From a virus (lineage: Duplodnaviria; Heunggongvirae; Uroviricota; Caudoviricetes): a stretch of 64,000 nucleotides of DNA. The DNA is taken from IMG/VR virus record IMGVR_UViG_2740892441_000001; one strand, given 5' to 3'. This document shows positions 40,195-50,866 of the stretch, in pieces (position 1 is the first letter of the stretch; each line of letters starts with the position of its first letter). The translations under genes were made by a program, and so were the position numbers. The notes beneath the pieces are model-generated. The model searched no databases and was not told the origin of the DNA. It was given only the letters and a program-made list of their open reading frames with translations.

Positions 40195-41754
40195 ATGACT
40201 GTTCGGATTGTATCTAACGCAGTAAATGCGCTTATTTCTGGCGCAGATGACAAGGTAAAGCAACTGGTGCAACAGATGTTGAGCTACGAAGTCGAGACTG
40301 GCGACTGGAAAGGCACAAGCACGATGTTCAACTGGAGTAAAAACTCGTTCCCTGCTGGCTTTGCCAAGCCTGTAGCGGCGAACTTGAACAAGGCGGGCAT
40401 CAAATGTGTTCATATCCGCAAAGACAAAGCCCCGGCGCTTGGAAAGCCAAATCCGGCGGTTAACCCATTCCCATACAATCCTGATTATGCGTATCAGGAT
40501 CAGACTGTGGAAACGCTAGTTCGCGAGGGAATGATGATTGCGCAGATCGCTACTGGTGGCGGAAAATCTAATGTTGCCTGCAAAGCAGCTGCACGTATCG
40601 GTCGAATGACATTATTTTTAACAACCCGCTCTGTTCTGATGTTTCAGATGGCCGAAAACTTCCAGAGATCCATCGACTACCGCGCCGAAAATGGCGAACC
40701 GTGGTTAAAAGACCAAAAGGTTGGAGTAATTGGCTCGGGTGAGTTCCAGGTATCGCGACATATCAACGTTGCTACAGTTCAAACTCTTGCAAGTTTCCTC
40801 GAAGAACCACCACGCGATGCAACACCAGATAAGAAAAGCTACCACCTCAAACGTCGGGAGTTGGTGAAACGCTTCCTTTCAAGTGTCTCTCTTCTTATTC
40901 TGGAAGAGGCGCATGAGTCTTCAGGCTCTAATTTCTATGACATTGCCAGATTATGTGCGAACGCAGACTATCGCCTGGCGCTTACGGCAACGCCGTTCAT
41001 GAAGGATTCTACGGAAGCCAACATGCGTCTGATGGCTGTGGCCGGGCGAATTGAAATAAAAGTCACGGAAAAGTACCTGATTGATAAAGGCATTCTGGCA
41101 AAGCCATACTTCCTTTATCATAAAGTTGCCTACAAACCGGACGAGGTCAGAATCAAGGCAGAACTTGCTAACAAACACCTCAATTTTAGAGTAGGTATGA
41201 GCACTGCCTACCAAAAGGCTTATCAGTTGGGGATCGTGTATAATTTGGGACGTAACGAGGCCATTGTGCGCGAAGCATTGCTCTATAAGCAACACTCTCT
41301 CAACTGCATGACTCTGGTTCGTCTTAAACGCCACGGGCAAATCCTGATGGAGATGATGAAGGAGTCCGGTCTTAGAGTTGACTTCATCTATGGGGAATCG
41401 AACCAGGCGACAAGGCAAGCAAAGCTGAACAGTTTAGCGTCTGGTGAAATAGATGTTTTAATAGGCTCGACTATTCTGGATGTCGGTGTTGATGTGCCAA
41501 GCGTTGGTGCGGTCATTCTTGCTGGTGGCGGGAAAGCAGAAGTTGAAATGAGACAACGTGTCGGTCGTGGCTTACGAGCCAAGAAGAATCAGGCAAACGT
41601 GTGTTTTATCACTGATTTCATTGACATTAGCAACAAATACCTGTTGTCTCACTCTTATGAGCGAAAACACATCATCGACACTACACCTGGCTTTGCAGAA
41701 GGTGTATTGCCTATTGATGGCGCATTCGATTTTGGAGTTCTGAAACGAGATTAG
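40195..41754 (+). CDS. superfamily 2 helicase (DEAH-type)
   Basis: 519-aa ORF; motif I ATGGGKSN, motif II LEEAHE, motif III LTATP, motif VI QRVGRGLR. Confidence 0.7.
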   Translation: MTVRIVSNAVNALISGADDKVKQLVQQMLSYEVETGDWKGTSTMFNWSKNSFPAGFAKPVAANLNKAGIKCVHIRKDKAPALGKPNPAVNPFPYNPDYAYQDQTVETLVREGMMIAQIATGGGKSNVACKAAARIGRMTLFLTTRSVLMFQMAENFQRSIDYRAENGEPWLKDQKVGVIGSGEFQVSRHINVATVQTLASFLEEPPRDATPDKKSYHLKRRELVKRFLSSVSLLILEEAHESSGSNFYDIARLCANADYRLALTATPFMKDSTEANMRLMAVAGRIEIKVTEKYLIDKGILAKPYFLYHKVAYKPDEVRIKAELANKHLNFRVGMSTAYQKAYQLGIVYNLGRNEAIVREALLYKQHSLNCMTLVRLKRHGQILMEMMKESGLRVDFIYGESNQATRQAKLNSLASGEIDVLIGSTILDVGVDVPSVGAVILAGGGKAEVEMRQRVGRGLRAKKNQANVCFITDFIDISNKYLLSHSYERKHIIDTTPGFAEGVLPIDGAFDFGVLKRD

Positions 41755-41756
41755 TT

Positions 41757-42035
41757 ATGAGCGAAAAGAAAACAACTTATTGTCAGGTAGCATTGACTGA
41801 TAAGGCCAATGACAAACTGGGAAAATTTCAAATGAAACTAAAAGAAAAAAACATCAAAATGTCCAAGGCTGAAGTTATCAATACCATTCTGGAGACGATG
41901 ACGATGGCTGAATTTGACAAGGTTTCATCTGCCGTTGGCGTCTCTGCTAAGGCTCGTGAAAAAATCATGCGCATCTATGAGAACTCTAATATGACAAAGG
42001 AAGACCTAGAACAAATTCTAAGCAAACTGCCATAA
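41757..42035 (+). CDS. hypothetical small protein
   Basis: 92-aa ORF coupled to helicase stop. Confidence 0.4.
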   Translation: MSEKKTTYCQVALTDKANDKLGKFQMKLKEKNIKMSKAEVINTILETMTMAEFDKVSSAVGVSAKAREKIMRIYENSNMTKEDLEQILSKLP

Positions 42036-42287
42036 CATTTCACATTCCCTCCATCCGCCAATTCCAAGATGTGCTTACTTGTAAAAGGAGCACATCAATT
42101 GATGTGGCAGAGAATGAATTTAATCAAGACAAACATTGAATGATTAATAGACTACGATAGTGTCCAACAGGGCATTCTCATGTGACATTTGTCACATTTT
42201 TAACCGCATAAGTCTCCGGCTGAAAAAAGTTCTTGATTGGCTGAATGATATTTGTAGGCTTATCAATGTTTAGAGCCGGAGGTGTGA

Positions 42288-42830
42288 ATGGGTGTACTTG
42301 ACATTGATAGTAATTACTTAAGTGCAAGGCGAATAAAGGAATGTGTTCATATCTATTGTAAATCAAAGCAGTCTTGTTTAGAAAAGCAGGCGTACCTAAC
42401 ATCTTCTCAAAAAGGAGAGCACAAACTCATCAAATATAAACTAAAGGCTTCGCGCAAAGATCGTTATGAGCACTATATATATGTAAAGGATATTGAAGGC
42501 ACCAAGACAAATTGCGGTATTATCTTTTATCCCTATGATATATCAAGACTGTTCTCCATTATGAAATCCTGTGTCGGCGTAGCTCCAGGTAAATTAGAGT
42601 TGCATTCAAACTTATACGATTACCCAAATGCTCAAAAACAGATAAACGATAGCACTTCGCCCTATGGATTTTCGTTTCTCTTTAAGAATCATCTCGCATT
42701 GAAAGATTTCATCGAAAAATACAATGAAGGAATAATATCAGGCGAATTAAATTTCAACAAAATCTGCGGAGATATAAAAAGGGACGACCTCTTAATAGAT
42801 ATTTACAATAGAATCCAAGTTAACGTGTAA
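42288..42830 (+). CDS. hypothetical protein (AT-rich island)
   Basis: 180-aa ORF, Lys/Ile/Asn-rich. Confidence 0.4.
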   Translation: MGVLDIDSNYLSARRIKECVHIYCKSKQSCLEKQAYLTSSQKGEHKLIKYKLKASRKDRYEHYIYVKDIEGTKTNCGIIFYPYDISRLFSIMKSCVGVAPGKLELHSNLYDYPNAQKQINDSTSPYGFSFLFKNHLALKDFIEKYNEGIISGELNFNKICGDIKRDDLLIDIYNRIQVNV

Positions 42831-42857
42831 CCATCCATTAATCATAGCCAGACAAAT

Positions 42858-43277
42858 ATGAAAGTAACAAACCTAATTATTCTGACACTAGCCACATCAC
42901 TAATTGGGTGTTCATCTTCATCTATATCTGTTTCAAAGGCAAAGTATGCGCCTCAAAGCAGAATATTTAAATATCAAACACCACATGAGTCTAGTCTAAC
43001 AATAGTTAGAGACAAAGGGCTGGTTGGTTCTGGATGTAACGCTTCCATATTCATCAATGGAGAAACGGCAGCAAAATTGGAACCTGGTGAAAAAGCAACT
43101 TTCTATCTTAATGAAGGAGATTGGATCGTTGGGACATCAATTGAAAGTTCAGGTCTTTGCGCATTTAACCCCTCTAGGATGGAGCGAGAAATAAAACTAA
43201 AGCAAGGCGACGCGAAAACATATCGGGTTTTCACTACCTGGGATGGTACAATGGATATATTGCCAACCACTTTATAA
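42858..43277 (+). CDS. lipoprotein
   Basis: 139-aa ORF; signal peptide with lipobox LIGC. Confidence 0.5.
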   Translation: MKVTNLIILTLATSLIGCSSSSISVSKAKYAPQSRIFKYQTPHESSLTIVRDKGLVGSGCNASIFINGETAAKLEPGEKATFYLNEGDWIVGTSIESSGLCAFNPSRMEREIKLKQGDAKTYRVFTTWDGTMDILPTTL

Positions 43278-43806
43278 TGATATGACGACGAAAGACATCA
43301 CCTACGGTGTGCCAGCAGAAGTCTGGCCTCGAGATTACACTAACGTTGAAAAACTACTGATGTTCTGGCGCAGAGAACAAATTCCTGTAAGGGCCACTCT
43401 AGAAGATGGCCAGGCGTTTTGCATGTACGTTTATGGCCTCATGCCATCTCGTAACAAAGTTGACCTTTGCCCAGCCCCTTTTGACAAAGAAAATCGTATA
43501 AGGCTCCCACTTGAACGCATTAGTACAATTGAATCAGGTGTGGTTGACAGTATCGCTCACGATTTCAAAGGTCGATTAACAGTTCACCCTGATTATGTCG
43601 ATAATCGGCCATCACGCCGCGATTTTTTTGCTATTTGCAACCAAGCCTATAAAGCAAACAAATCTATAAGGGTGTACATGGCGGATGGCCGTGAAATTGA
43701 GGGGGTGTCAGCAGGCGCAGATGCTTGTCAGGTTACACTACGTGTCGAGAACGGTAGAAAAATAGTTATTTTGTTCGATTGGGTTGAACGAATTTTGCCT
43801 TTTTGA
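43243..43806 (+). CDS. hypothetical protein
   Basis: 187-aa ORF; true start may be the internal Met about 40 nt downstream. Confidence 0.4.
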   Translation: MVQWIYCQPLYNDMTTKDITYGVPAEVWPRDYTNVEKLLMFWRREQIPVRATLEDGQAFCMYVYGLMPSRNKVDLCPAPFDKENRIRLPLERISTIESGVVDSIAHDFKGRLTVHPDYVDNRPSRRDFFAICNQAYKANKSIRVYMADGREIEGVSAGADACQVTLRVENGRKIVILFDWVERILPF

Positions 43807-43809
43807 GTT

Positions 43810-44118
43810 ATGAAATCGATATTGTTACCACCATTATTTTTACTTTGCTCAGTTGCAGCAAATGCAATGGACTATAAGCCTGTCATTCAGTCGCTGATGA
43901 ATGACGTGTGCTCAACGTCTCAGAATGTATCAGTTTGCATGTATCAATTTTCGGCAGCCGTAAAAGCAGGAAAAGCGATAGGTGAGAATGTGGAACTGTG
44001 TAAGAAAGTGGCAAATGAAGAACGAGCAATGTTGGATTGCGAATCTAGCGAGTCATCGGCACAGTTCGTTGATGCGCTATTTGACACCAATCGTAAGGCT
44101 GTAGAGTCTGTCCAATAA
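43810..44118 (+). CDS. small secreted protein
   Basis: 102-aa ORF; signal peptide ending AANA; four Cys. Confidence 0.45.
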   Translation: MKSILLPPLFLLCSVAANAMDYKPVIQSLMNDVCSTSQNVSVCMYQFSAAVKAGKAIGENVELCKKVANEERAMLDCESSESSAQFVDALFDTNRKAVESVQ

Positions 44119-44399
44119 ATCTATAAGGTTAATAACCGGCTAAGTCCGGTTATTATTTTTCACATCACTTCTTTATATCTATAAATCAAACAACCTAAAT
44201 ATATAAGGTCGAAAGCCGGAATCGATTATTTATTTAGGGAACACCTTCGACGATCTCGCTTTTATTTCTAGGACTTTCATCCCTGCAAAAAAATTTAAAA
44301 AAACACTTGCAATCTTTTTTCGCGTATCGATAATTGAACTCGTCGAAAGCGAAGATGCTAACGACAATAAATTTTAAATTTACATAAGGAAAAATTATC

Positions 44400-45050
44400 A
44401 TGGCTAACATTATCATTTCTAAAAAATCCATCATTGAAGCTGCTTCCATTGTATCCGACGAGCTGCGCGAAAAAGCAGATCTGGCAACTCAAACATATAA
44501 CGAACATTATAAAAATGGTACGCACACTAAAGCAGACAAAGCAAATATGCAAGCTGCGACCACTAAACTTGCTTACTTCATCAACAACGTTGTAAACGCT
44601 GTTGAAGACGAAAAATTATGCTCTGTTTTCTACTATGCGATTAAAGCAAGCAAACAAGCGCCAGAAGTATTTTTCCGTGATGCAATGACTAATAGTTATT
44701 CACTGGAAAAACTGGTTTATCTGGTTAAATCTATTAAAGCTGGTAAATGCGTTTATTCCGTCGCTGATATGTCAGGATCTCGTGTATTCGCTTTAATCGA
44801 TATGATTAACGACGAGATCGACACGTTCACCAATGGCGCTGTTTTCGATTTAATGAATGAAGCTAAAAAAGCGTGTGAGATTAAATTGGACGCTGGCTAT
44901 ACTCAAGCCAACCAGTTGATCAATCTTTGCGAACGTCTCGGACTTGTTGAAAAAGTCAAAGGAGCTGGGAGCGCAAAAGCTGGTACTCAGCAATATCGCT
45001 TTATCAAGAATGATTTCTACAATTATCTAGCTGATGCTTTCAAAGCGTAA
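44400..45050 (+). CDS. hypothetical protein
   Basis: 216-aa ORF with good SD (AAGGAAAAA); followed by hairpin. Confidence 0.45.
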   Translation: MANIIISKKSIIEAASIVSDELREKADLATQTYNEHYKNGTHTKADKANMQAATTKLAYFINNVVNAVEDEKLCSVFYYAIKASKQAPEVFFRDAMTNSYSLEKLVYLVKSIKAGKCVYSVADMSGSRVFALIDMINDEIDTFTNGAVFDLMNEAKKACEIKLDAGYTQANQLINLCERLGLVEKVKGAGSAKAGTQQYRFIKNDFYNYLADAFKA

Positions 45051-45097
45051 TTAATGGAATCAAGCGCCCACTATGGGCGCTTTAAAGGAGCTTTAAA

Positions 45098-45301
45098 ATG
45101 GTCAGCTATGACAAGATCCGCGCGGAATATCGCGCAAAGTATCGCGCTTACAAACTGGAATTAATCGATGATTTGATCGCGCAACGCGACCAATTAAATT
45201 TTACGTTTTCTGATTTGCTTAACAGCAAGCGAGATTGCAAGCGCAAACGTGAATATTTACGTTTAAGCGCATTAATCGGAAAACTTCAAAATTCTATTTA
45301 A
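45098..45301 (+). CDS. hypothetical small protein
   Basis: 67-aa ORF with SD AAAGGAG. Confidence 0.35.
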   Translation: MVSYDKIRAEYRAKYRAYKLELIDDLIAQRDQLNFTFSDLLNSKRDCKRKREYLRLSALIGKLQNSI

Positions 45302-45321
45302 TTTTTTTAAGGAGCTTAATC

Positions 45322-45549
45322 ATGTTTGTTCTTATCGCTGGCGTTAACGTCCACAATGAATATTGTGTTAATGATATTGCTGGGATCGCTGGTTACGCTG
45401 GATCTGTTGAGCTTATAGATGAAACGACGCGCAAAATTGACTTATTGAGCGACCAGGAGCGAAAAAAAGCAGACGTGAACGACGCTGATATATTTTTAAT
45501 GTTAAAAGCGTTTGTAGAAATGGGATTTGAAATCAGTTTACATAAATAA
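45322..45549 (+). CDS. hypothetical small protein
   Basis: 75-aa ORF with SD AAGGAG; followed by terminator. Confidence 0.35.
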   Translation: MFVLIAGVNVHNEYCVNDIAGIAGYAGSVELIDETTRKIDLLSDQERKKADVNDADIFLMLKAFVEMGFEISLHK

Positions 45550-45554
45550 AATCG

Positions 45555-45579
45555 AGCGCCCACTATGGGCGCTTTTTTC
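45555..45579 (+). terminator. rho-independent terminator
   Basis: Hairpin agcgcccactatgggcgct plus T6; same hairpin also at about 45063-45081. Confidence 0.6.
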
Positions 45580-45600
45580 GTTTCCAATACTCCCACCATA

Positions 45601-45627
45601 ACGCGCCATCATTGGCGCGTTTTTTAT
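45601..45627 (+). terminator. rho-independent terminator
   Basis: Hairpin acgcgccatcattggcgcgt plus T6. Confidence 0.55.
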
Positions 45628-45984
45628 TGTCTTTAACTCACTCCAACAACATAAAAATAAGCGCCAAAATAACGCCATAGACGCGATTTTATATCCTCGC
45701 CAGTACATACCCATTACTTAACACATTAACGCGCTTAAAACGCGTTATATTGCGCTATAGAGTATGGTTAATCGTTGGCTTTTAGTCTTGCTTTATGATC
45801 CGCGTTTATTTGTCGGCGCGGATCGGCATTTTGTTTTGTTCCGTATCCGCTCGCGTATTATGTGCGCGTGATTTTTCACATAATCACACCACTTAATCAC
45901 GTATGTGATTATGCTACGAAAGAAATCTGGATGTCTCAGGCGACGAAAGTCATCATAATTTTCCCCGCTCACCTGTCCGACAAC

Positions 45985-46160
45985 CGCTGGTTGGATTCAA
46001 CCAGCTTCCCGATGTTTTTTCTATATAAAGGCGAATGCAGCCGTTTCCCGAAAAAATCCTGGCCGTTTCCCGTCGGCTCATGAATGCGTTCCTCGCCGTT
46101 TCTGAAAATTTCCCTGCGGCAGCTGGTGGCTATAGAGAAAGGGCCGTTTCTGGCCCTCTT
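45985..46160. repeat. iteron-like array (GCCGTTTCC units)
   Basis: About five direct copies: cagccgtttcccgaaaa, ggccgtttcccgtcgg, cgccgtttctgaaaa, gggccgtttctggccc. Confidence 0.55.
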
Positions 46161-46165
46161 CTCAG

Positions 46166-49805: not shown

Positions 49806-50399
49806 GAAGGCTGACCGTAGGGGTGTTACGGGGGATAAAATCAGTAGTTGAATAAATACGAAAAAGGAGGCGACACCCCTCCTTCCCTCCCCACTTATAC
49901 ATACCTGGCTTCTTCGCTATGCATGTTGTGTTTTCTTCGTGTTTTATCTGTTTCAACCTCTCTATAGGCGTTAATGCTCACTCCTTCCAGAACGTTCTAT
50001 ACGGCAACTATTTCTGTTGGTGAATTGGGTGTGTTGTTTTCTCTGTCGGTGTATGTGGTTTCGTTCGTTTTGCGGTGGTTCTTCTATAGGGTGTTCTCGT
50101 CGTTTTGGTGATTGTTCTTCTCCGTCTATGGAGTAATGGCAGGTGGGCGATTCCTTTCGTTATTGTGTTTGAGTTGTTTGTCTGGAGTGCGTGAAGGGCT
50201 TTTGTAGTTATTCGTGTATTGGGTAATGGCGTTTCCCGTGATTGTTCTGTTTCGTGTCTTTTGGGATTGAAGAATCCTTGCGGTAACAGGCTTCGTTGGG
50301 GTTTCAGTGATTCTGGTGTTTCTTCGCTGTTTGGGTAATGGCGTGTCGTGGGTATCGCGCGTATGAATGTTTTCGGATTGCCTGTGAAAGTTAGGTTGG

Positions 50400-50465
50400 T
50401 TGTCCGGTAGCCTGGGAAGAAGAGGTGGGTCTTTTCGGTAGCCTGCCATAAAGAGGTTGGTTGTT
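50400..50465. repeat. direct repeat pair in GT-skewed noncoding tract
   Basis: cggtagcctgggaagaagaggtgggtctttt / cggtagcctgccataaagaggttggttgttttt. Confidence 0.45.
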
Positions 50466-50866
50466 TTTGGGAATGGCATATGCGTTATTTAGTTGTTTTG
50501 TTATGCCTGAAAATAAGTTGTTTATATGGTTATGTAACGCAACGGGAACGATTTTGAGCGTGTGTTTTTGTTGGTAGTGTGTTGGGTCGTCTGTGGTGAA
50601 AATTGGACGCTGTGGCGCTGTCTGCTGCGTAGGATTGCGGGTATAAGAAGTAATGTGTGAAAACGTCAATTTTTTAGACCAAATCGGGTGAAAGCGTTGA
50701 CGTTTCGTTGATCTGTTATTCAGTTGTTTTCTTGTTTGTATAAACAACTATAACCTATTGATATTTAAGGGTGTGATTGCAGGTATGGAAGGGGAGTAGT
50801 GGCGATCAACGGATTCTTATAGAAAAGAATCAAATTGTGACCGCCATTATCAATAAGTTGCAACCG

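What the first reader, a model, noticed from the sequence alone, without database searches (positions are those of the whole stretch)
42040..45590. AT-rich plus-strand accessory island encoding a lipoprotein, a secreted Cys-containing protein and several unknowns
Base composition drops sharply relative to flanking DNA, orientation is opposite to the rest of the element, and the genes have their own SDs and two identical terminator hairpins (about 45063-45081 and 45555-45573). Envelope-targeted small proteins in such islands often mediate superinfection exclusion or similar functions.
Basis: partly seen in the sequence, partly recalled or inferred. Interest (0 to 1): 0.55.

Follow-up and report, generated by a model that had tools for sequence, protein, structure and literature searches.

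The report
Phage-plasmid slot with orphan FljA-like repressor

Summary
Window 42040-45590 has the lowest GC of any same-sized stretch in the window (0.388 vs 0.468). It lies in a plus-strand block, and the two identical hairpins are exactly where stated.

It is not one island. The window is an SSU5/pHCM2-type phage-plasmid, 100% identical here to E. coli plasmid pEC00678_4. Only 42.04-44.12 kb varies among relatives. p216, p67 and p75 and their hairpins are backbone. The duplicated hairpin brackets a small p67/p75 cassette.

The main "unknown" (43282-43806) is a strong member of the FljA family (Pfam Flag1_repress, E=1e-83). Its model is two tandem Sm/Hfq-like domains, which fits an RNA-binding translational repressor. 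It has no partner flagellin or invertase and is about 35% identical to canonical FljA.

It is present and syntenic in all 18 relatives examined. It is intact in 822 of 831 plasmids, 341 of them from Klebsiella, and is under purifying selection there. Its conserved role is therefore probably not flagellin-specific.

The lipoprotein (distantly DUF2846-like) and the four-Cys periplasmic protein are the true variable cargo. Nothing links them to known exclusion or defence families.

Verdict: ordinary slot, moderately interesting core gene, function untested.

The parts
40195..41754 (+). DEAD/DEAH-box helicase. First gene of the plus-strand block, backbone, outside the finding's coordinates.
   Evidence: Pfam ResIII, DEAD and Helicase_C. 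90-99% aa identity in main-clade relatives and 72% in PP2.
41757..42035 (+). p92, a conserved small backbone protein of unknown function (phrog_1466). Already AT-rich (GC 0.38).
   Evidence: The left recombination breakpoint lies at 42011-42097.
42036..42287 (.). IG1, the intergenic region upstream of the cargo operon. It contains two palindromes: CACATCAATTGATGTG (42091-42106) and ATGTGAC-ATTT-GTCACAT (42180-42197).
   Evidence: Segment 42135-42261 is 78-81% identical upstream of cargo genes in Cyrano, PhiR41_1 and the APEC plasmid. No confident promoter was found.
42288..42830 (+). p180, a variable cytoplasmic protein of unknown function (phrog_31250). Lowest GC of the genes (0.346). Strong Shine-Dalgarno site (GGAGG).
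   Evidence: Among fetched relatives it is found only in the APEC plasmid (72%), with faint 24-28% matches in two others. No Pfam, PADLOC or PDB match.
42858..43277 (+). Lipoprotein, 139 aa. Lipobox L-I-G-C with Cys18 and Ser at +2. Invariant Cys60 and Cys101. Conserved C-terminal LPTTL. Variable cargo.
43282..43806 (+). FljA-family protein, 174 aa. The ATG at 43282 is the same start PGAP uses in the identical plasmid record. Predicted tandem Sm/Hfq-like RNA-binding protein. Core gene of the phage-plasmid group, but its alleles are shuffled among relatives.
43810..44118 (+). sec102, a small secreted (periplasmic) protein. Signal peptide with predicted cleavage after ANA at residue 19. Four invariant Cys (34, 43, 64, 77). 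A precise insertion between the FljA-like stop codon and IG2. Variable cargo.
   Evidence: phrog_9536. Alignment including 24-26% identical Klebsiella and APEC paralogues. Hydrophobic N-terminus. Insertion boundaries.
44130..44155 (+). Intrinsic terminator ending the cargo/FljA-like operon (AATAACCGG-CTAAGT-CCGGTTATT followed by a T-run).
   Evidence: -12.6 kcal/mol, z -4.3. 0-2 substitutions across the main clade and replaced by a different hairpin in PP2.
44156..44399 (+). IG2, the backbone regulatory region of p216. Conserved boxes (TATATAAGG, TTTATTTAGGGAACACCTTCGA, TTTCTAGGACTTT). Promoter TTGCAA-16-GATAAT at 44307-44334. About 60-nt leader with a small hairpin (GUCG-AA-AGC...GCU-AA-CGAC).
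   Evidence: The boxes and promoter are conserved even in PP2. The leader hairpin alone is not significant (z -1.45).
44400..45050 (+). p216, a universal backbone protein of unknown function (phrog_1513). Always the next backbone gene after FljA-like.
   Evidence: No Pfam or PDB match.
45063..45081 (+). Left copy of the invariant hairpin. No U-tract; followed directly by the Shine-Dalgarno site of p67.
45098..45301 (+). p67, a small hydrophilic protein (phrog_6145). The 'MIT/CorA transporter' label in SSU5 and PHROGs is spurious. Variably present.
   Evidence: no hydrophobic segment.
45322..45549 (+). p75, a small protein of unknown function (phrog_1585). Variably present.
45555..45573 (+). 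Right copy of the invariant hairpin, with a U-tract. This is the functional intrinsic terminator of the p216 operon. A second terminator follows at 45600-45621.

Best explanation
The stretch is the right-hand part of a 5.4-kb rightward gene block (helicase to p75) of an SSU5/pHCM2-type phage-plasmid. It contains two transcription units.

Unit 1 (42.29-44.16 kb) runs p180, lipoprotein, FljA-like, sec102. The last three genes are translationally coupled and the unit ends at a conserved terminator. It sits in a recombination-prone slot where p180, the lipoprotein and sec102 are exchangeable cargo.

Unit 2 (44.3-45.6 kb) runs p216, p67, p75 and is backbone. It has its own conserved promoter and leader. 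Its terminator is an invariant hairpin that has been duplicated around the optional p67/p75 cassette.

The functional centrepiece is the FljA-family protein. I infer that it is a sequence-specific RNA-binding translational repressor built from two Sm/Hfq-like domains, and that, like FljA, it binds an mRNA leader and blocks translation.

This gene has no partner flagellin. It is a syntenic core gene of the whole phage-plasmid group, and it stays intact and under purifying selection in elements living in non-flagellate Klebsiella. Its conserved target is therefore most likely not flagellin mRNA alone. The likelier target is an RNA of the phage-plasmid itself (the adjacent p216 operon is the obvious candidate) or a host mRNA common to all Enterobacterales. 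Repression of fliC in E. coli or Salmonella would then be a possible side activity.

Shown: anatomy, family membership, predicted fold, distribution and selection. Inferred: RNA binding, repression and the identity of the target.

The lipoprotein and the four-Cys periplasmic protein are envelope cargo genes of unknown function.
For: Identity of the element: 92-94% to Escherichia phages CMS-2020a, PhiR41_1 and Cyrano, 80% to SSU5, and 100% to E. coli plasmid pEC00678_4. In complete E. coli genomes this DNA occurs in 229 of 5426 genomes, always on plasmids.

Slot and backbone: the gene-family map of 15 relatives and the breakpoints at 42011-42097 and at 43007 or 44116.

Operon structure: gaps of 27, 4 and 3 nt between the coupled genes, Shine-Dalgarno sites, terminators and promoter.

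FljA family: Pfam PF03614 E=1e-83 over the full profile; 40% identity, E=3e-41, to a chromosomal fljA lying directly downstream of a flagellin gene in Atlantibacter.

Known FljA mechanism: it blocks translation of fliC mRNA, and a plasmid carrying fljA(z66) made motile E. coli non-motile (PMC2652032).

Not flagellin-specific: no flagellin and no Hin-like invertase in the 64 kb. The gene is in 831 plasmids, 822 of them full-length: Klebsiella 341, Escherichia 229, Enterobacter 92, Yersinia 62 (all listed hits Y. pestis), Salmonella 60. It is syntenic even in the very divergent Klebsiella clade PP2, where it is the only gene between p92 and p216. dN/dS is 0.08-0.28 in the main clade and 0.10-0.14 within PP2, with no relaxation in Klebsiella-borne lineages.
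Against: - No RNA target has been identified.
- No fliC-leader-like sequence occurs in the window, but the FljA operator is not defined well enough to search properly.
- The test for co-variation between FljA-like alleles and the p216 leader was inconclusive: rho 0.76, no better than the 0.91 seen for the neighbouring upstream spacer.
- The p216 leader hairpin is not significant on its own (z -1.45).
- Phage-plasmids may move between motile and non-motile hosts, so purifying selection measured on Klebsiella-borne copies does not strictly exclude a flagellin target.
- Y. pestis pFra is nearly identical to SSU5 here (97% aa, dS 0.07) and so carries little weight.
- The Sm fold is a prediction; no structure of any FljA-family protein exists.
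- That K. pneumoniae lacks flagella is textbook knowledge and was not tested here.
Confidence: 0.45

Rival explanations
1. Lysogenic conversion of motility. The FljA-like protein does what FljA does: it binds the host fliC mRNA leader, blocks flagellin translation and makes the carrier cell non-flagellate. That would save energy, hide a major antigen and remove the receptor of flagellum-dependent phages. On this reading the island is a host-manipulation module, and its presence in Klebsiella reflects host switching or a second target.
For: Full-length family membership. The N-terminal motif DITYG..AEVWPRDY and the C-terminal RVYM.DGR.IEG / FDWV.RI blocks are shared with canonical FljA. Canonical FljA works across species, and without a usable partner flagellin it abolishes motility in E. 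coli (PMC2652032). E. coli flkB/fljA homologues repress E. coli fliC (PMC3378880). The gene sits next to envelope cargo genes. pHCM2 and SSU5 annotators gave it the flagellin-repressor name.
Against: It forms a separate deep clade, 31-41% identical to canonical FljA, which is as far as it is from the second phage-plasmid clade. It has no partner flagellin or invertase. It is most abundant and intact in Klebsiella plasmids, and dN/dS there is as low as elsewhere. It is a syntenic core gene rather than cargo. No paper in the searched library reports a motility effect of pHCM2/SSU5-type elements.
Confidence: 0.3
2. One reading: a horizontally acquired accessory island whose envelope proteins (the lipoprotein and the secreted Cys protein) mediate superinfection exclusion or a similar anti-phage function, with the other genes as passengers.
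For: The lipoprotein and sec102 are clearly envelope-targeted. They are variably present among near-identical relatives and lie in the lowest-GC region. Small phage lipoproteins such as T5 Llp and phi80 Cor are classic exclusion factors (my own knowledge).
Against: There is no similarity to any exclusion or defence family: Pfam, PHROG function, PADLOC and NCBIfam are all negative. The lipoprotein belongs to a very large family of about 140-aa proteins that is distantly DUF2846-like, not to a recognised phage exclusion family. Half of the proposed island is conserved backbone. There are no mobility genes, tRNA or flanking repeats. The most divergent relatives lack both envelope genes.
Confidence: 0.12
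3. The FljA-like protein is an ordinary DNA-binding transcriptional regulator, as PGAP labels it, controlling the neighbouring promoter(s). The palindromes in IG1 or the conserved boxes in IG2 would be its operators.
Against: No helix-turn-helix or other DNA-binding domain appears in Pfam or in the model; the whole protein is taken up by two Sm-like barrels. Characterised family members act after transcription, with fliC mRNA present but not translated (PMC2652032).
Confidence: 0.08

Closest known systems
FljA (Salmonella fljBA operon), FljA(z66) of linear plasmid pBSSB1, and FlkB of E. coli flk islets: post-transcriptional repressors of phase-1 flagellin
   Same: Same Pfam family (PF03614) over the full length and about the same size (174 vs 174-179 aa). 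Shared N-terminal DITYG..AEVWPRDY and C-terminal RVYM.DGR.IEG...FDWV.RI motifs. The same mode of action, binding an mRNA leader to block translation, is presumed.
   Different: A separate deep clade, 31-41% identical, whereas canonical members are 55-98% identical to each other. It is not downstream of a flagellin gene and has no invertase or excisable islet. It sits in a fixed backbone position of a phage-plasmid next to a helicase and p216. It is common in hosts without flagella. NCBI names the canonical clade 'phase 1 flagellin transcriptional repressor' but this clade only 'transcriptional regulator'.
Hfq and other bacterial Sm-like RNA-binding proteins
   Different: Two Sm domains are fused in one chain. 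Sequence identity to Hfq is only 11-20%. No evidence was obtained here for ring assembly or general chaperone activity. Family members studied so far act as specific repressors, not global chaperones.
Cargo ('moron') slots and variable plasmid-like modules of phage-plasmids (P1, N15 and SSU5 groups)
   Same: A recombination hot spot between conserved backbone genes, with its own regulatory signals and terminator. Low GC. Envelope-targeted small proteins. Content differs among otherwise 95%-identical relatives.
   Different: The slot is built around a gene that is never lost (FljA-like) but whose alleles are exchanged: 68-97% aa among E. coli relatives whose helicase and p216 are 97.5-99% identical.
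Phage and plasmid exclusion lipoproteins (T5 Llp, phi80/N15 Cor, lambda Bor, TraT, TrbK)
   Same: A small lipoprotein with a classical lipobox, encoded by a mobile element.
   Different: No sequence or profile similarity for the window protein. One of 51 distant relatives gave a chance-level TrbK hit, E=0.0076. The family is distantly DUF2846-like. The fold search was uninformative.

Membership tests
FljA / Pfam PF03614 Flag1_repress | Full-length match to the family profile above the curated threshold | tested here: met
   279.6 bits against a cutoff of 24, E=1.1e-83, profile positions 1-170 of 170. PHROG 1444, E=1e-99.
FljA / Pfam PF03614 Flag1_repress | Lies immediately downstream of, and is co-transcribed with, an alternative flagellin gene (fljB, flkA or fljB-z66) | tested here: not met
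   The upstream gene is a lipoprotein. No flagellin is found anywhere in the 64 kb (best tblastn E=0.13). The canonical arrangement was seen for comparison in Atlantibacter.
FljA / Pfam PF03614 Flag1_repress | Expression switched by an invertase (hin, pinR) or by an excisable islet | tested here: not met
   No Hin-like serine recombinase in the window (best E=0.078; the query sequence was recalled from memory). No tRNA or flanking repeats.
FljA / Pfam PF03614 Flag1_repress | Same clade as the experimentally characterised repressors (orthology) | tested here: not met
   The NJ tree gives three deep clades. The window protein is 34-40% identical to named Salmonella, E. coli, Citrobacter and Atlantibacter FljA.
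FljA / Pfam PF03614 Flag1_repress | Binds the fliC mRNA leader and blocks its translation | not testable with these tools
   Needs motility, FliC western, reporter-fusion or RNA-binding assays. No fliC-leader-like sequence occurs in the window.
Sm / Hfq-like fold | N-terminal helix followed by a five-stranded, strongly bent antiparallel sheet | tested here: met
Sm / Hfq-like fold | Ring-shaped oligomer that binds RNA | not testable with these tools
   No multimer prediction or experiment was available.
Bacterial lipoprotein (Lol pathway) | Signal peptide ending in a lipobox [LVI][ASTVI][GAS]C | tested here: met
   MKVTNLIILTLATSLIGC, with Cys18 invariant in 10 homologues and Ser at +2.
Known exclusion lipoproteins (Llp, Cor, Bor, TraT, TrbK) | Profile or sequence similarity to the family | tested here: not met
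   No Pfam, NCBIfam or PADLOC hit for the window protein at E<=0.1.
DUF2846 (PF11008) | Match to the Pfam profile | tested here: inconclusive
   The window protein itself does not match. Of 51 relatives found by the profile search, 10 do, best E=2e-5.
Anti-phage defence systems (PADLOC) | Any gene of the stretch matches a defence-system model | tested here: not met
   No hit for any cargo gene. Only the helicase outside the stretch gives generic helicase-type hits.
Horizontally acquired genomic island | Deviant composition, presence/absence among close relatives, and mobility signatures (integrase, tRNA, direct repeats) | tested here: inconclusive
   Composition criterion met. Presence/absence is met for p180, the lipoprotein and sec102, but not for FljA-like, p216 or IG2. 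No mobility signatures were found.
Rho-independent terminator | GC-rich hairpin followed by a U-tract | tested here: met
   Met for 45555-45573, 44130-44155 and 45600-45621. Not met for the left copy at 45063-45081, which has the hairpin but only UUU before AAAGGAG.

The most novel reading that the evidence does not exclude
FljA-family proteins are primarily phage-plasmid proteins. On this reading they are tandem-Sm, sequence-specific translational repressors that control an operon of the element itself, such as p216 (maintenance or the lysis-lysogeny decision). They may act through the conserved leader or through the strangely invariant GCGCCCACUAUGGGCGC hairpin. The famous Salmonella and E. 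coli flagellar phase-variation repressor would then be a domesticated offshoot of this mobile-element regulator.
Probability: 0.2. Interest if true: 0.75.

Novelty: new variant of a known kind. Interest (0 to 1): 0.48.

Why it matters
SSU5/pHCM2/pMT1-type phage-plasmids are common. This stretch is in about 4% of complete E. coli genomes and in hundreds of Klebsiella, Enterobacter, Salmonella and Y. pestis plasmids, and some of these elements carry resistance genes. Almost nothing is known about how they are regulated.

A universally conserved FljA-like RNA-binding repressor is a concrete handle. If it silences flagellin, carriage would change motility, antigenicity and phage susceptibility of the host. 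If it regulates the element itself, it would be a new kind of post-transcriptional control in phage-plasmids, and it would change how the origin of a textbook phase-variation regulator is understood. Both outcomes can be tested with simple genetics.

Tried and rejected
- fliC-leader-like target in the window: best local score 27, against shuffles with mean 26.5 and max 31, so nothing.
- Co-variation of FljA-like alleles with the p216 leader: the leader diverges where alleles differ, but no more specifically than the adjacent spacer (rho 0.76 vs 0.91, n=15 pairs). Linkage explains it.
- Sequence search of solved structures for p216, p180, sec102 and the FljA profile: nothing.
- PADLOC and NCBIfam for all genes: nothing meaningful.
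- Rfam at E<=1 and tRNA scan: only sub-threshold chance hits, no tRNA.
- Literature: no paper in the library links FljA with SSU5, pHCM2, pMT1 or phage-plasmids, or with an Sm/Hfq fold. The primary FljA mechanism papers (PMC1347349, PMC1544088) and pBSSB1 (AM419040) were not available.
- The idea that low GC marks recent acquisition: rejected, because the backbone genes p92, p216 and p75 are as AT-rich as the cargo.
- The idea that the two hairpins delimit the island: rejected.
- The genome-wide locus search returned only 8 loci because its peptide patterns were narrow. It missed Salmonella fljA, which was recovered later by a profile search.

Full report
**1. What the window is**

The 64-kb window is part of an SSU5/pHCM2-type phage-plasmid. 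The region 41700-46200 matches Escherichia phages CMS-2020a, PhiR41_1 and Cyrano at 91-94% and Salmonella phage SSU5 at 80%. The cargo part is 100% identical to E. coli plasmid pEC00678_4 (NZ_OP378623.1, 109 kb). Among 5426 complete E. coli genomes, related DNA is present in 229, always on plasmids and never on a chromosome.

**2. The observation**

Composition:
- 42040-45590 has GC 0.388 against 0.468 for the rest of the window.
- Only 0.3% of same-length windows are as low, and the minimum lies at 42001.
- The dip starts near 41550 and is uneven:

| Segment | GC |
|---|---|
| p180 | 0.346 |
| Spacer IG2 | 0.313 |
| Lipoprotein | 0.39 |
| p216 | 0.389 |
| FljA-like | 0.45 |
| sec102 | 0.42 |

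Orientation: the plus-strand block runs from the helicase (40195) to p75 (45549), in an otherwise minus-strand window.

Hairpins:
- The 19-mer AGCGCCCACTATGGGCGCT is at exactly 45063-45081 and 45555-45573 and nowhere else.
- Both copies fold stably, at -15.1 and -15.5 kcal/mol.
- Only the right copy has a U-tract. The left one runs straight into the ribosome-binding site of p67.

Shine-Dalgarno sites: present for p180, p216, p67 and p75. The lipoprotein, FljA-like and sec102 genes start 27, 4 and 3 nt after the previous stop codon, so they are probably translationally coupled.

**3. Anatomy from comparison with relatives**

I mapped the window's proteins onto 15 relatives from E. coli, Salmonella, Y. 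pestis, Klebsiella, Kluyvera, Buttiauxella and a metagenome bin. I added three more loci of a second, very divergent Klebsiella clade, which I call PP2.

The backbone order is always: ParB, ParB, helicase, p92, [variable genes], FljA-like, [sec102 or not], IG2, p216, [p67 or not], [p75 or not], then p160 on the other strand.

- FljA-like is present in every relative, and p216 in every relative whose contig extends that far (L024 ends just after the FljA-like gene). In PP2, FljA-like is the only gene between p92 and p216.
- The lipoprotein is in 9 of the first 15. p180 is in one other, plus two faint matches. sec102 is in three.
- Against E. coli relatives whose flanks are about 95% identical, the breakpoints are 42011-42097 on the left and 43007 or 44116 on the right.
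- sec102 is a precise insertion between the FljA-like stop codon and IG2.

So only 42.04-44.12 kb is variable. IG2, p216, p67, p75 and the hairpins are backbone. Backbone genes such as p92, p216 and p75 are as AT-rich as the cargo, so low GC is a property of this module and not a sign of recent acquisition.

**4. The hairpins**

- The 17-nt core GCGCCCACTATGGGCGC is identical, loop included, in all relatives. That includes PP2, where p216 is only about 50% identical at the protein level.
- The other two terminators of the region drift normally. One is replaced by a different hairpin in PP2, and the other has 1-5 substitutions.
- Relatives without p67 and p75 (Buttiauxella and two PP2 loci) have one copy directly after p216, with the tail TTTTTTCGTTTC.
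- In the main clade, relatives with a cassette have two copies bracketing it. One PP2 locus (L022) has two copies only 43 bp apart with no cassette between them.
- In PhiR41_1 the left copy has its loop inverted.

The 'two identical terminators' are therefore one backbone terminator duplicated around a small optional cassette. Why its sequence is so strictly conserved is unexplained.

**5. The key gene**

The 187-aa ORF at 43243-43806 has its real start at ATG 43282, giving 174 aa, as annotated by PGAP in the identical plasmid. It matches Pfam PF03614 (Flag1_repress, the FljA family) with E=1e-83 over the whole profile.

Characterised FljA proteins prevent translation of fliC mRNA. A plasmid carrying fljA(z66) made a motile E. 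coli non-motile (PMC2652032). E. coli flkB acts the same way (PMC3378880).

The window protein differs from those in several defining respects:
- There is no flagellin gene and no Hin-type invertase in the 64 kb.
- In a tree it falls in a clade made of phage-plasmid copies. That clade is 31-41% identical to the canonical chromosomal clade and equally far from the PP2 clade.
- A chromosomal homologue in Atlantibacter shows the canonical layout of flagellin followed by fljA, and is 40% identical to the window protein.

**6. Predicted fold**

- An AlphaFold2 model built on 20 homologues is confident (pLDDT 83, pTM 0.81). It consists of two tandem units, each a helix followed by five strands.
- Pfam also gives a weak Hfq hit on the C-terminal half.
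- No FljA-family structure has been solved, and no paper in the searched library connects FljA with the Sm fold.

A tandem Sm architecture fits the known post-transcriptional action of FljA. It argues against the RefSeq label 'transcriptional regulator'.

**7. Is flagellin the target?**

A protein-level search of 72,556 plasmids finds the gene in 831, full-length in 822. The hosts are:

| Host genus | Plasmids |
|---|---|
| Klebsiella | 341 |
| Escherichia | 229 |
| Enterobacter | 92 |
| Yersinia (all listed hits Y. pestis) | 62 |
| Salmonella | 60 |
| Citrobacter | 27 |

K. pneumoniae and its close relatives are non-flagellate, and Y. pestis is non-motile (textbook knowledge, not tested here).

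Selection:
- dN/dS is 0.08-0.28 in every measurable pair of the main clade, including the Klebsiella copies.
- It is 0.10-0.14 within the Klebsiella-borne PP2 clade, where synonymous divergence exceeds 1.
- So the gene is maintained by selection in elements of hosts that have no flagellin mRNA.
- It also evolves faster than its neighbours (helicase 0.03, ParB 0.04-0.07, p216 0.08).
- Its alleles are shuffled. E. coli relatives with 98-99% identical helicases and 97.5-99% identical p216 carry FljA-like alleles that are 68-97% identical.

I conclude that the conserved function is probably not flagellin-specific. The caveat is that these elements may move between motile and non-motile hosts. The Y. 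pestis copy is too recent to be informative (97% identical to SSU5, dS 0.07).

**8. Search for an intrinsic target**

- IG2 contains blocks conserved even between the two phage-plasmid clades: TATATAAGG, TTTATTTAGGGAACACCTTC, TTTCTAAGACTTT, and a promoter (CTTGC..., then TCGATAAT).
- The predicted leader of about 60 nt has a small hairpin with one G-C to A-U compensatory change between lineages. That hairpin is not significant on its own (z -1.45).
- The leader is the most divergent piece of IG2 among E. coli relatives. It tracks the FljA-like allele (rho 0.76), but the upstream spacer tracks it at least as well (rho 0.91), so linkage is a sufficient explanation.
- No fliC-leader-like sequence is present in the window.

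The p216 operon remains only a candidate target.

**9. The envelope proteins**

Lipoprotein:
- It has a classical lipobox (Cys18), Ser at +2, two further invariant Cys and a conserved C-terminus.
- It first looked confined to these plasmids. A profile search of 1.8 billion representatives then found 1158 related clusters of about 140-aa proteins.
- Of 51 sampled relatives, 10 match DUF2846, a family of unknown function.
- Its model is a beta-sandwich of moderate confidence with no informative structural neighbour.

sec102:
- It has a signal peptide and four invariant Cys, conserved down to 24-26% identical paralogues in Klebsiella and in a second tandem copy in an APEC plasmid.

None of p180, the lipoprotein or sec102 matches any exclusion, defence or virion family. 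Superinfection exclusion is possible but has no support beyond cellular location.

**10. Verdict**

The slot itself is an ordinary variable module of a common phage-plasmid. What deserves follow-up is its fixed centrepiece: an orphan FljA-family protein, predicted to be tandem-Sm, that is a core gene of the whole SSU5/pHCM2/pMT1 group.

| Reading | Probability |
|---|---|
| RNA-binding translational repressor whose conserved target is not limited to flagellin | about 0.45 |
| Mainly a host flagellin silencer | about 0.3 |
| DNA-binding regulator | about 0.08 |

The presence of the gene has been annotated for years (pHCM2 'repressor of fliC', SSU5_121). The points I could not find in the literature are its core status, its maintenance in non-flagellate hosts, the three-clade family structure and the fold. 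I therefore rate it a new variant of a known kind, of moderate interest.

Noticed in passing
window 45064-45080 and 45556-45572; also L001-L025: The hairpin GCGCCCACTATGGGCGC is identical, loop included, in every relative, even in the PP2 clade where the adjacent p216 is only about 50% identical at the protein level. Neighbouring terminators drift normally. In PhiR41_1 one copy has its loop inverted. This is much stronger conservation than termination alone needs.
   Followed up: partly
window 44156-44340 (IG2): The non-coding boxes TATATAAGG, TTTATTTAGGGAACACCTTCGA and TTTCTAGGACTTT, and the promoter TTGCAA-16-GATAAT, are conserved across both phage-plasmid clades. No binding protein has been assigned to them.
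   Followed up: partly
window 42091-42106 and 42180-42197 (IG1): Two operator-like palindromes, CACATCAATTGATGTG and ATGTGAC-ATTT-GTCACAT, lie upstream of the cargo operon. They share the half-site ATGTG/CACAT.
   Followed up: no
window 50000-50750: The plus strand is strikingly G/T-rich here (GC skew +0.34, AT skew -0.31). Words like GGGTAATGGCG recur near 50130, 50223 and 50333, but no tandem repeat is found by TRF. This may be an iteron or origin region.
   Followed up: partly
window 45098-45301 (p67): The label 'MIT family metal ion transporter CorA', used for this protein in SSU5 and in PHROG 6145, is spurious. The protein is 67 aa, hydrophilic, and has no membrane segment.
   Followed up: yes
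window 45574-46165: A stretch of about 600 bp without a convincing gene lies between the convergent p75 and p160 genes. It carries three more terminator-like hairpins (45600-45621, 45796-45825, 45852-45868).
   Followed up: no
L021, L022, L024, L025 (Klebsiella plasmids): A second, deeply divergent phage-plasmid clade (PP2) carries the FljA-like gene in a minimal slot: helicase, small ORF, FljA-like, p216, with no envelope genes. Its FljA-like protein is 30-38% identical to main-clade proteins (31-36% to the window protein).
   Followed up: yes
L007 4682-4978 and 5054-5353 (E. coli APEC plasmid): Two tandem, divergent paralogues of the four-Cys secreted protein follow the FljA-like gene.
   Followed up: partly
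L020 (Y. pestis pFra) and L011: The plague plasmid pFra/pMT1 carries the same lipoprotein plus FljA-like pair as Salmonella phage SSU5. The FljA-like proteins are 97% identical (dS 0.07).
   Followed up: partly
protein P0077: A protein labelled Gemella morbillorum has an FljA-like N-terminal half fused to unrelated sequence. It is probably an assembly chimera or contaminant.
   Followed up: no
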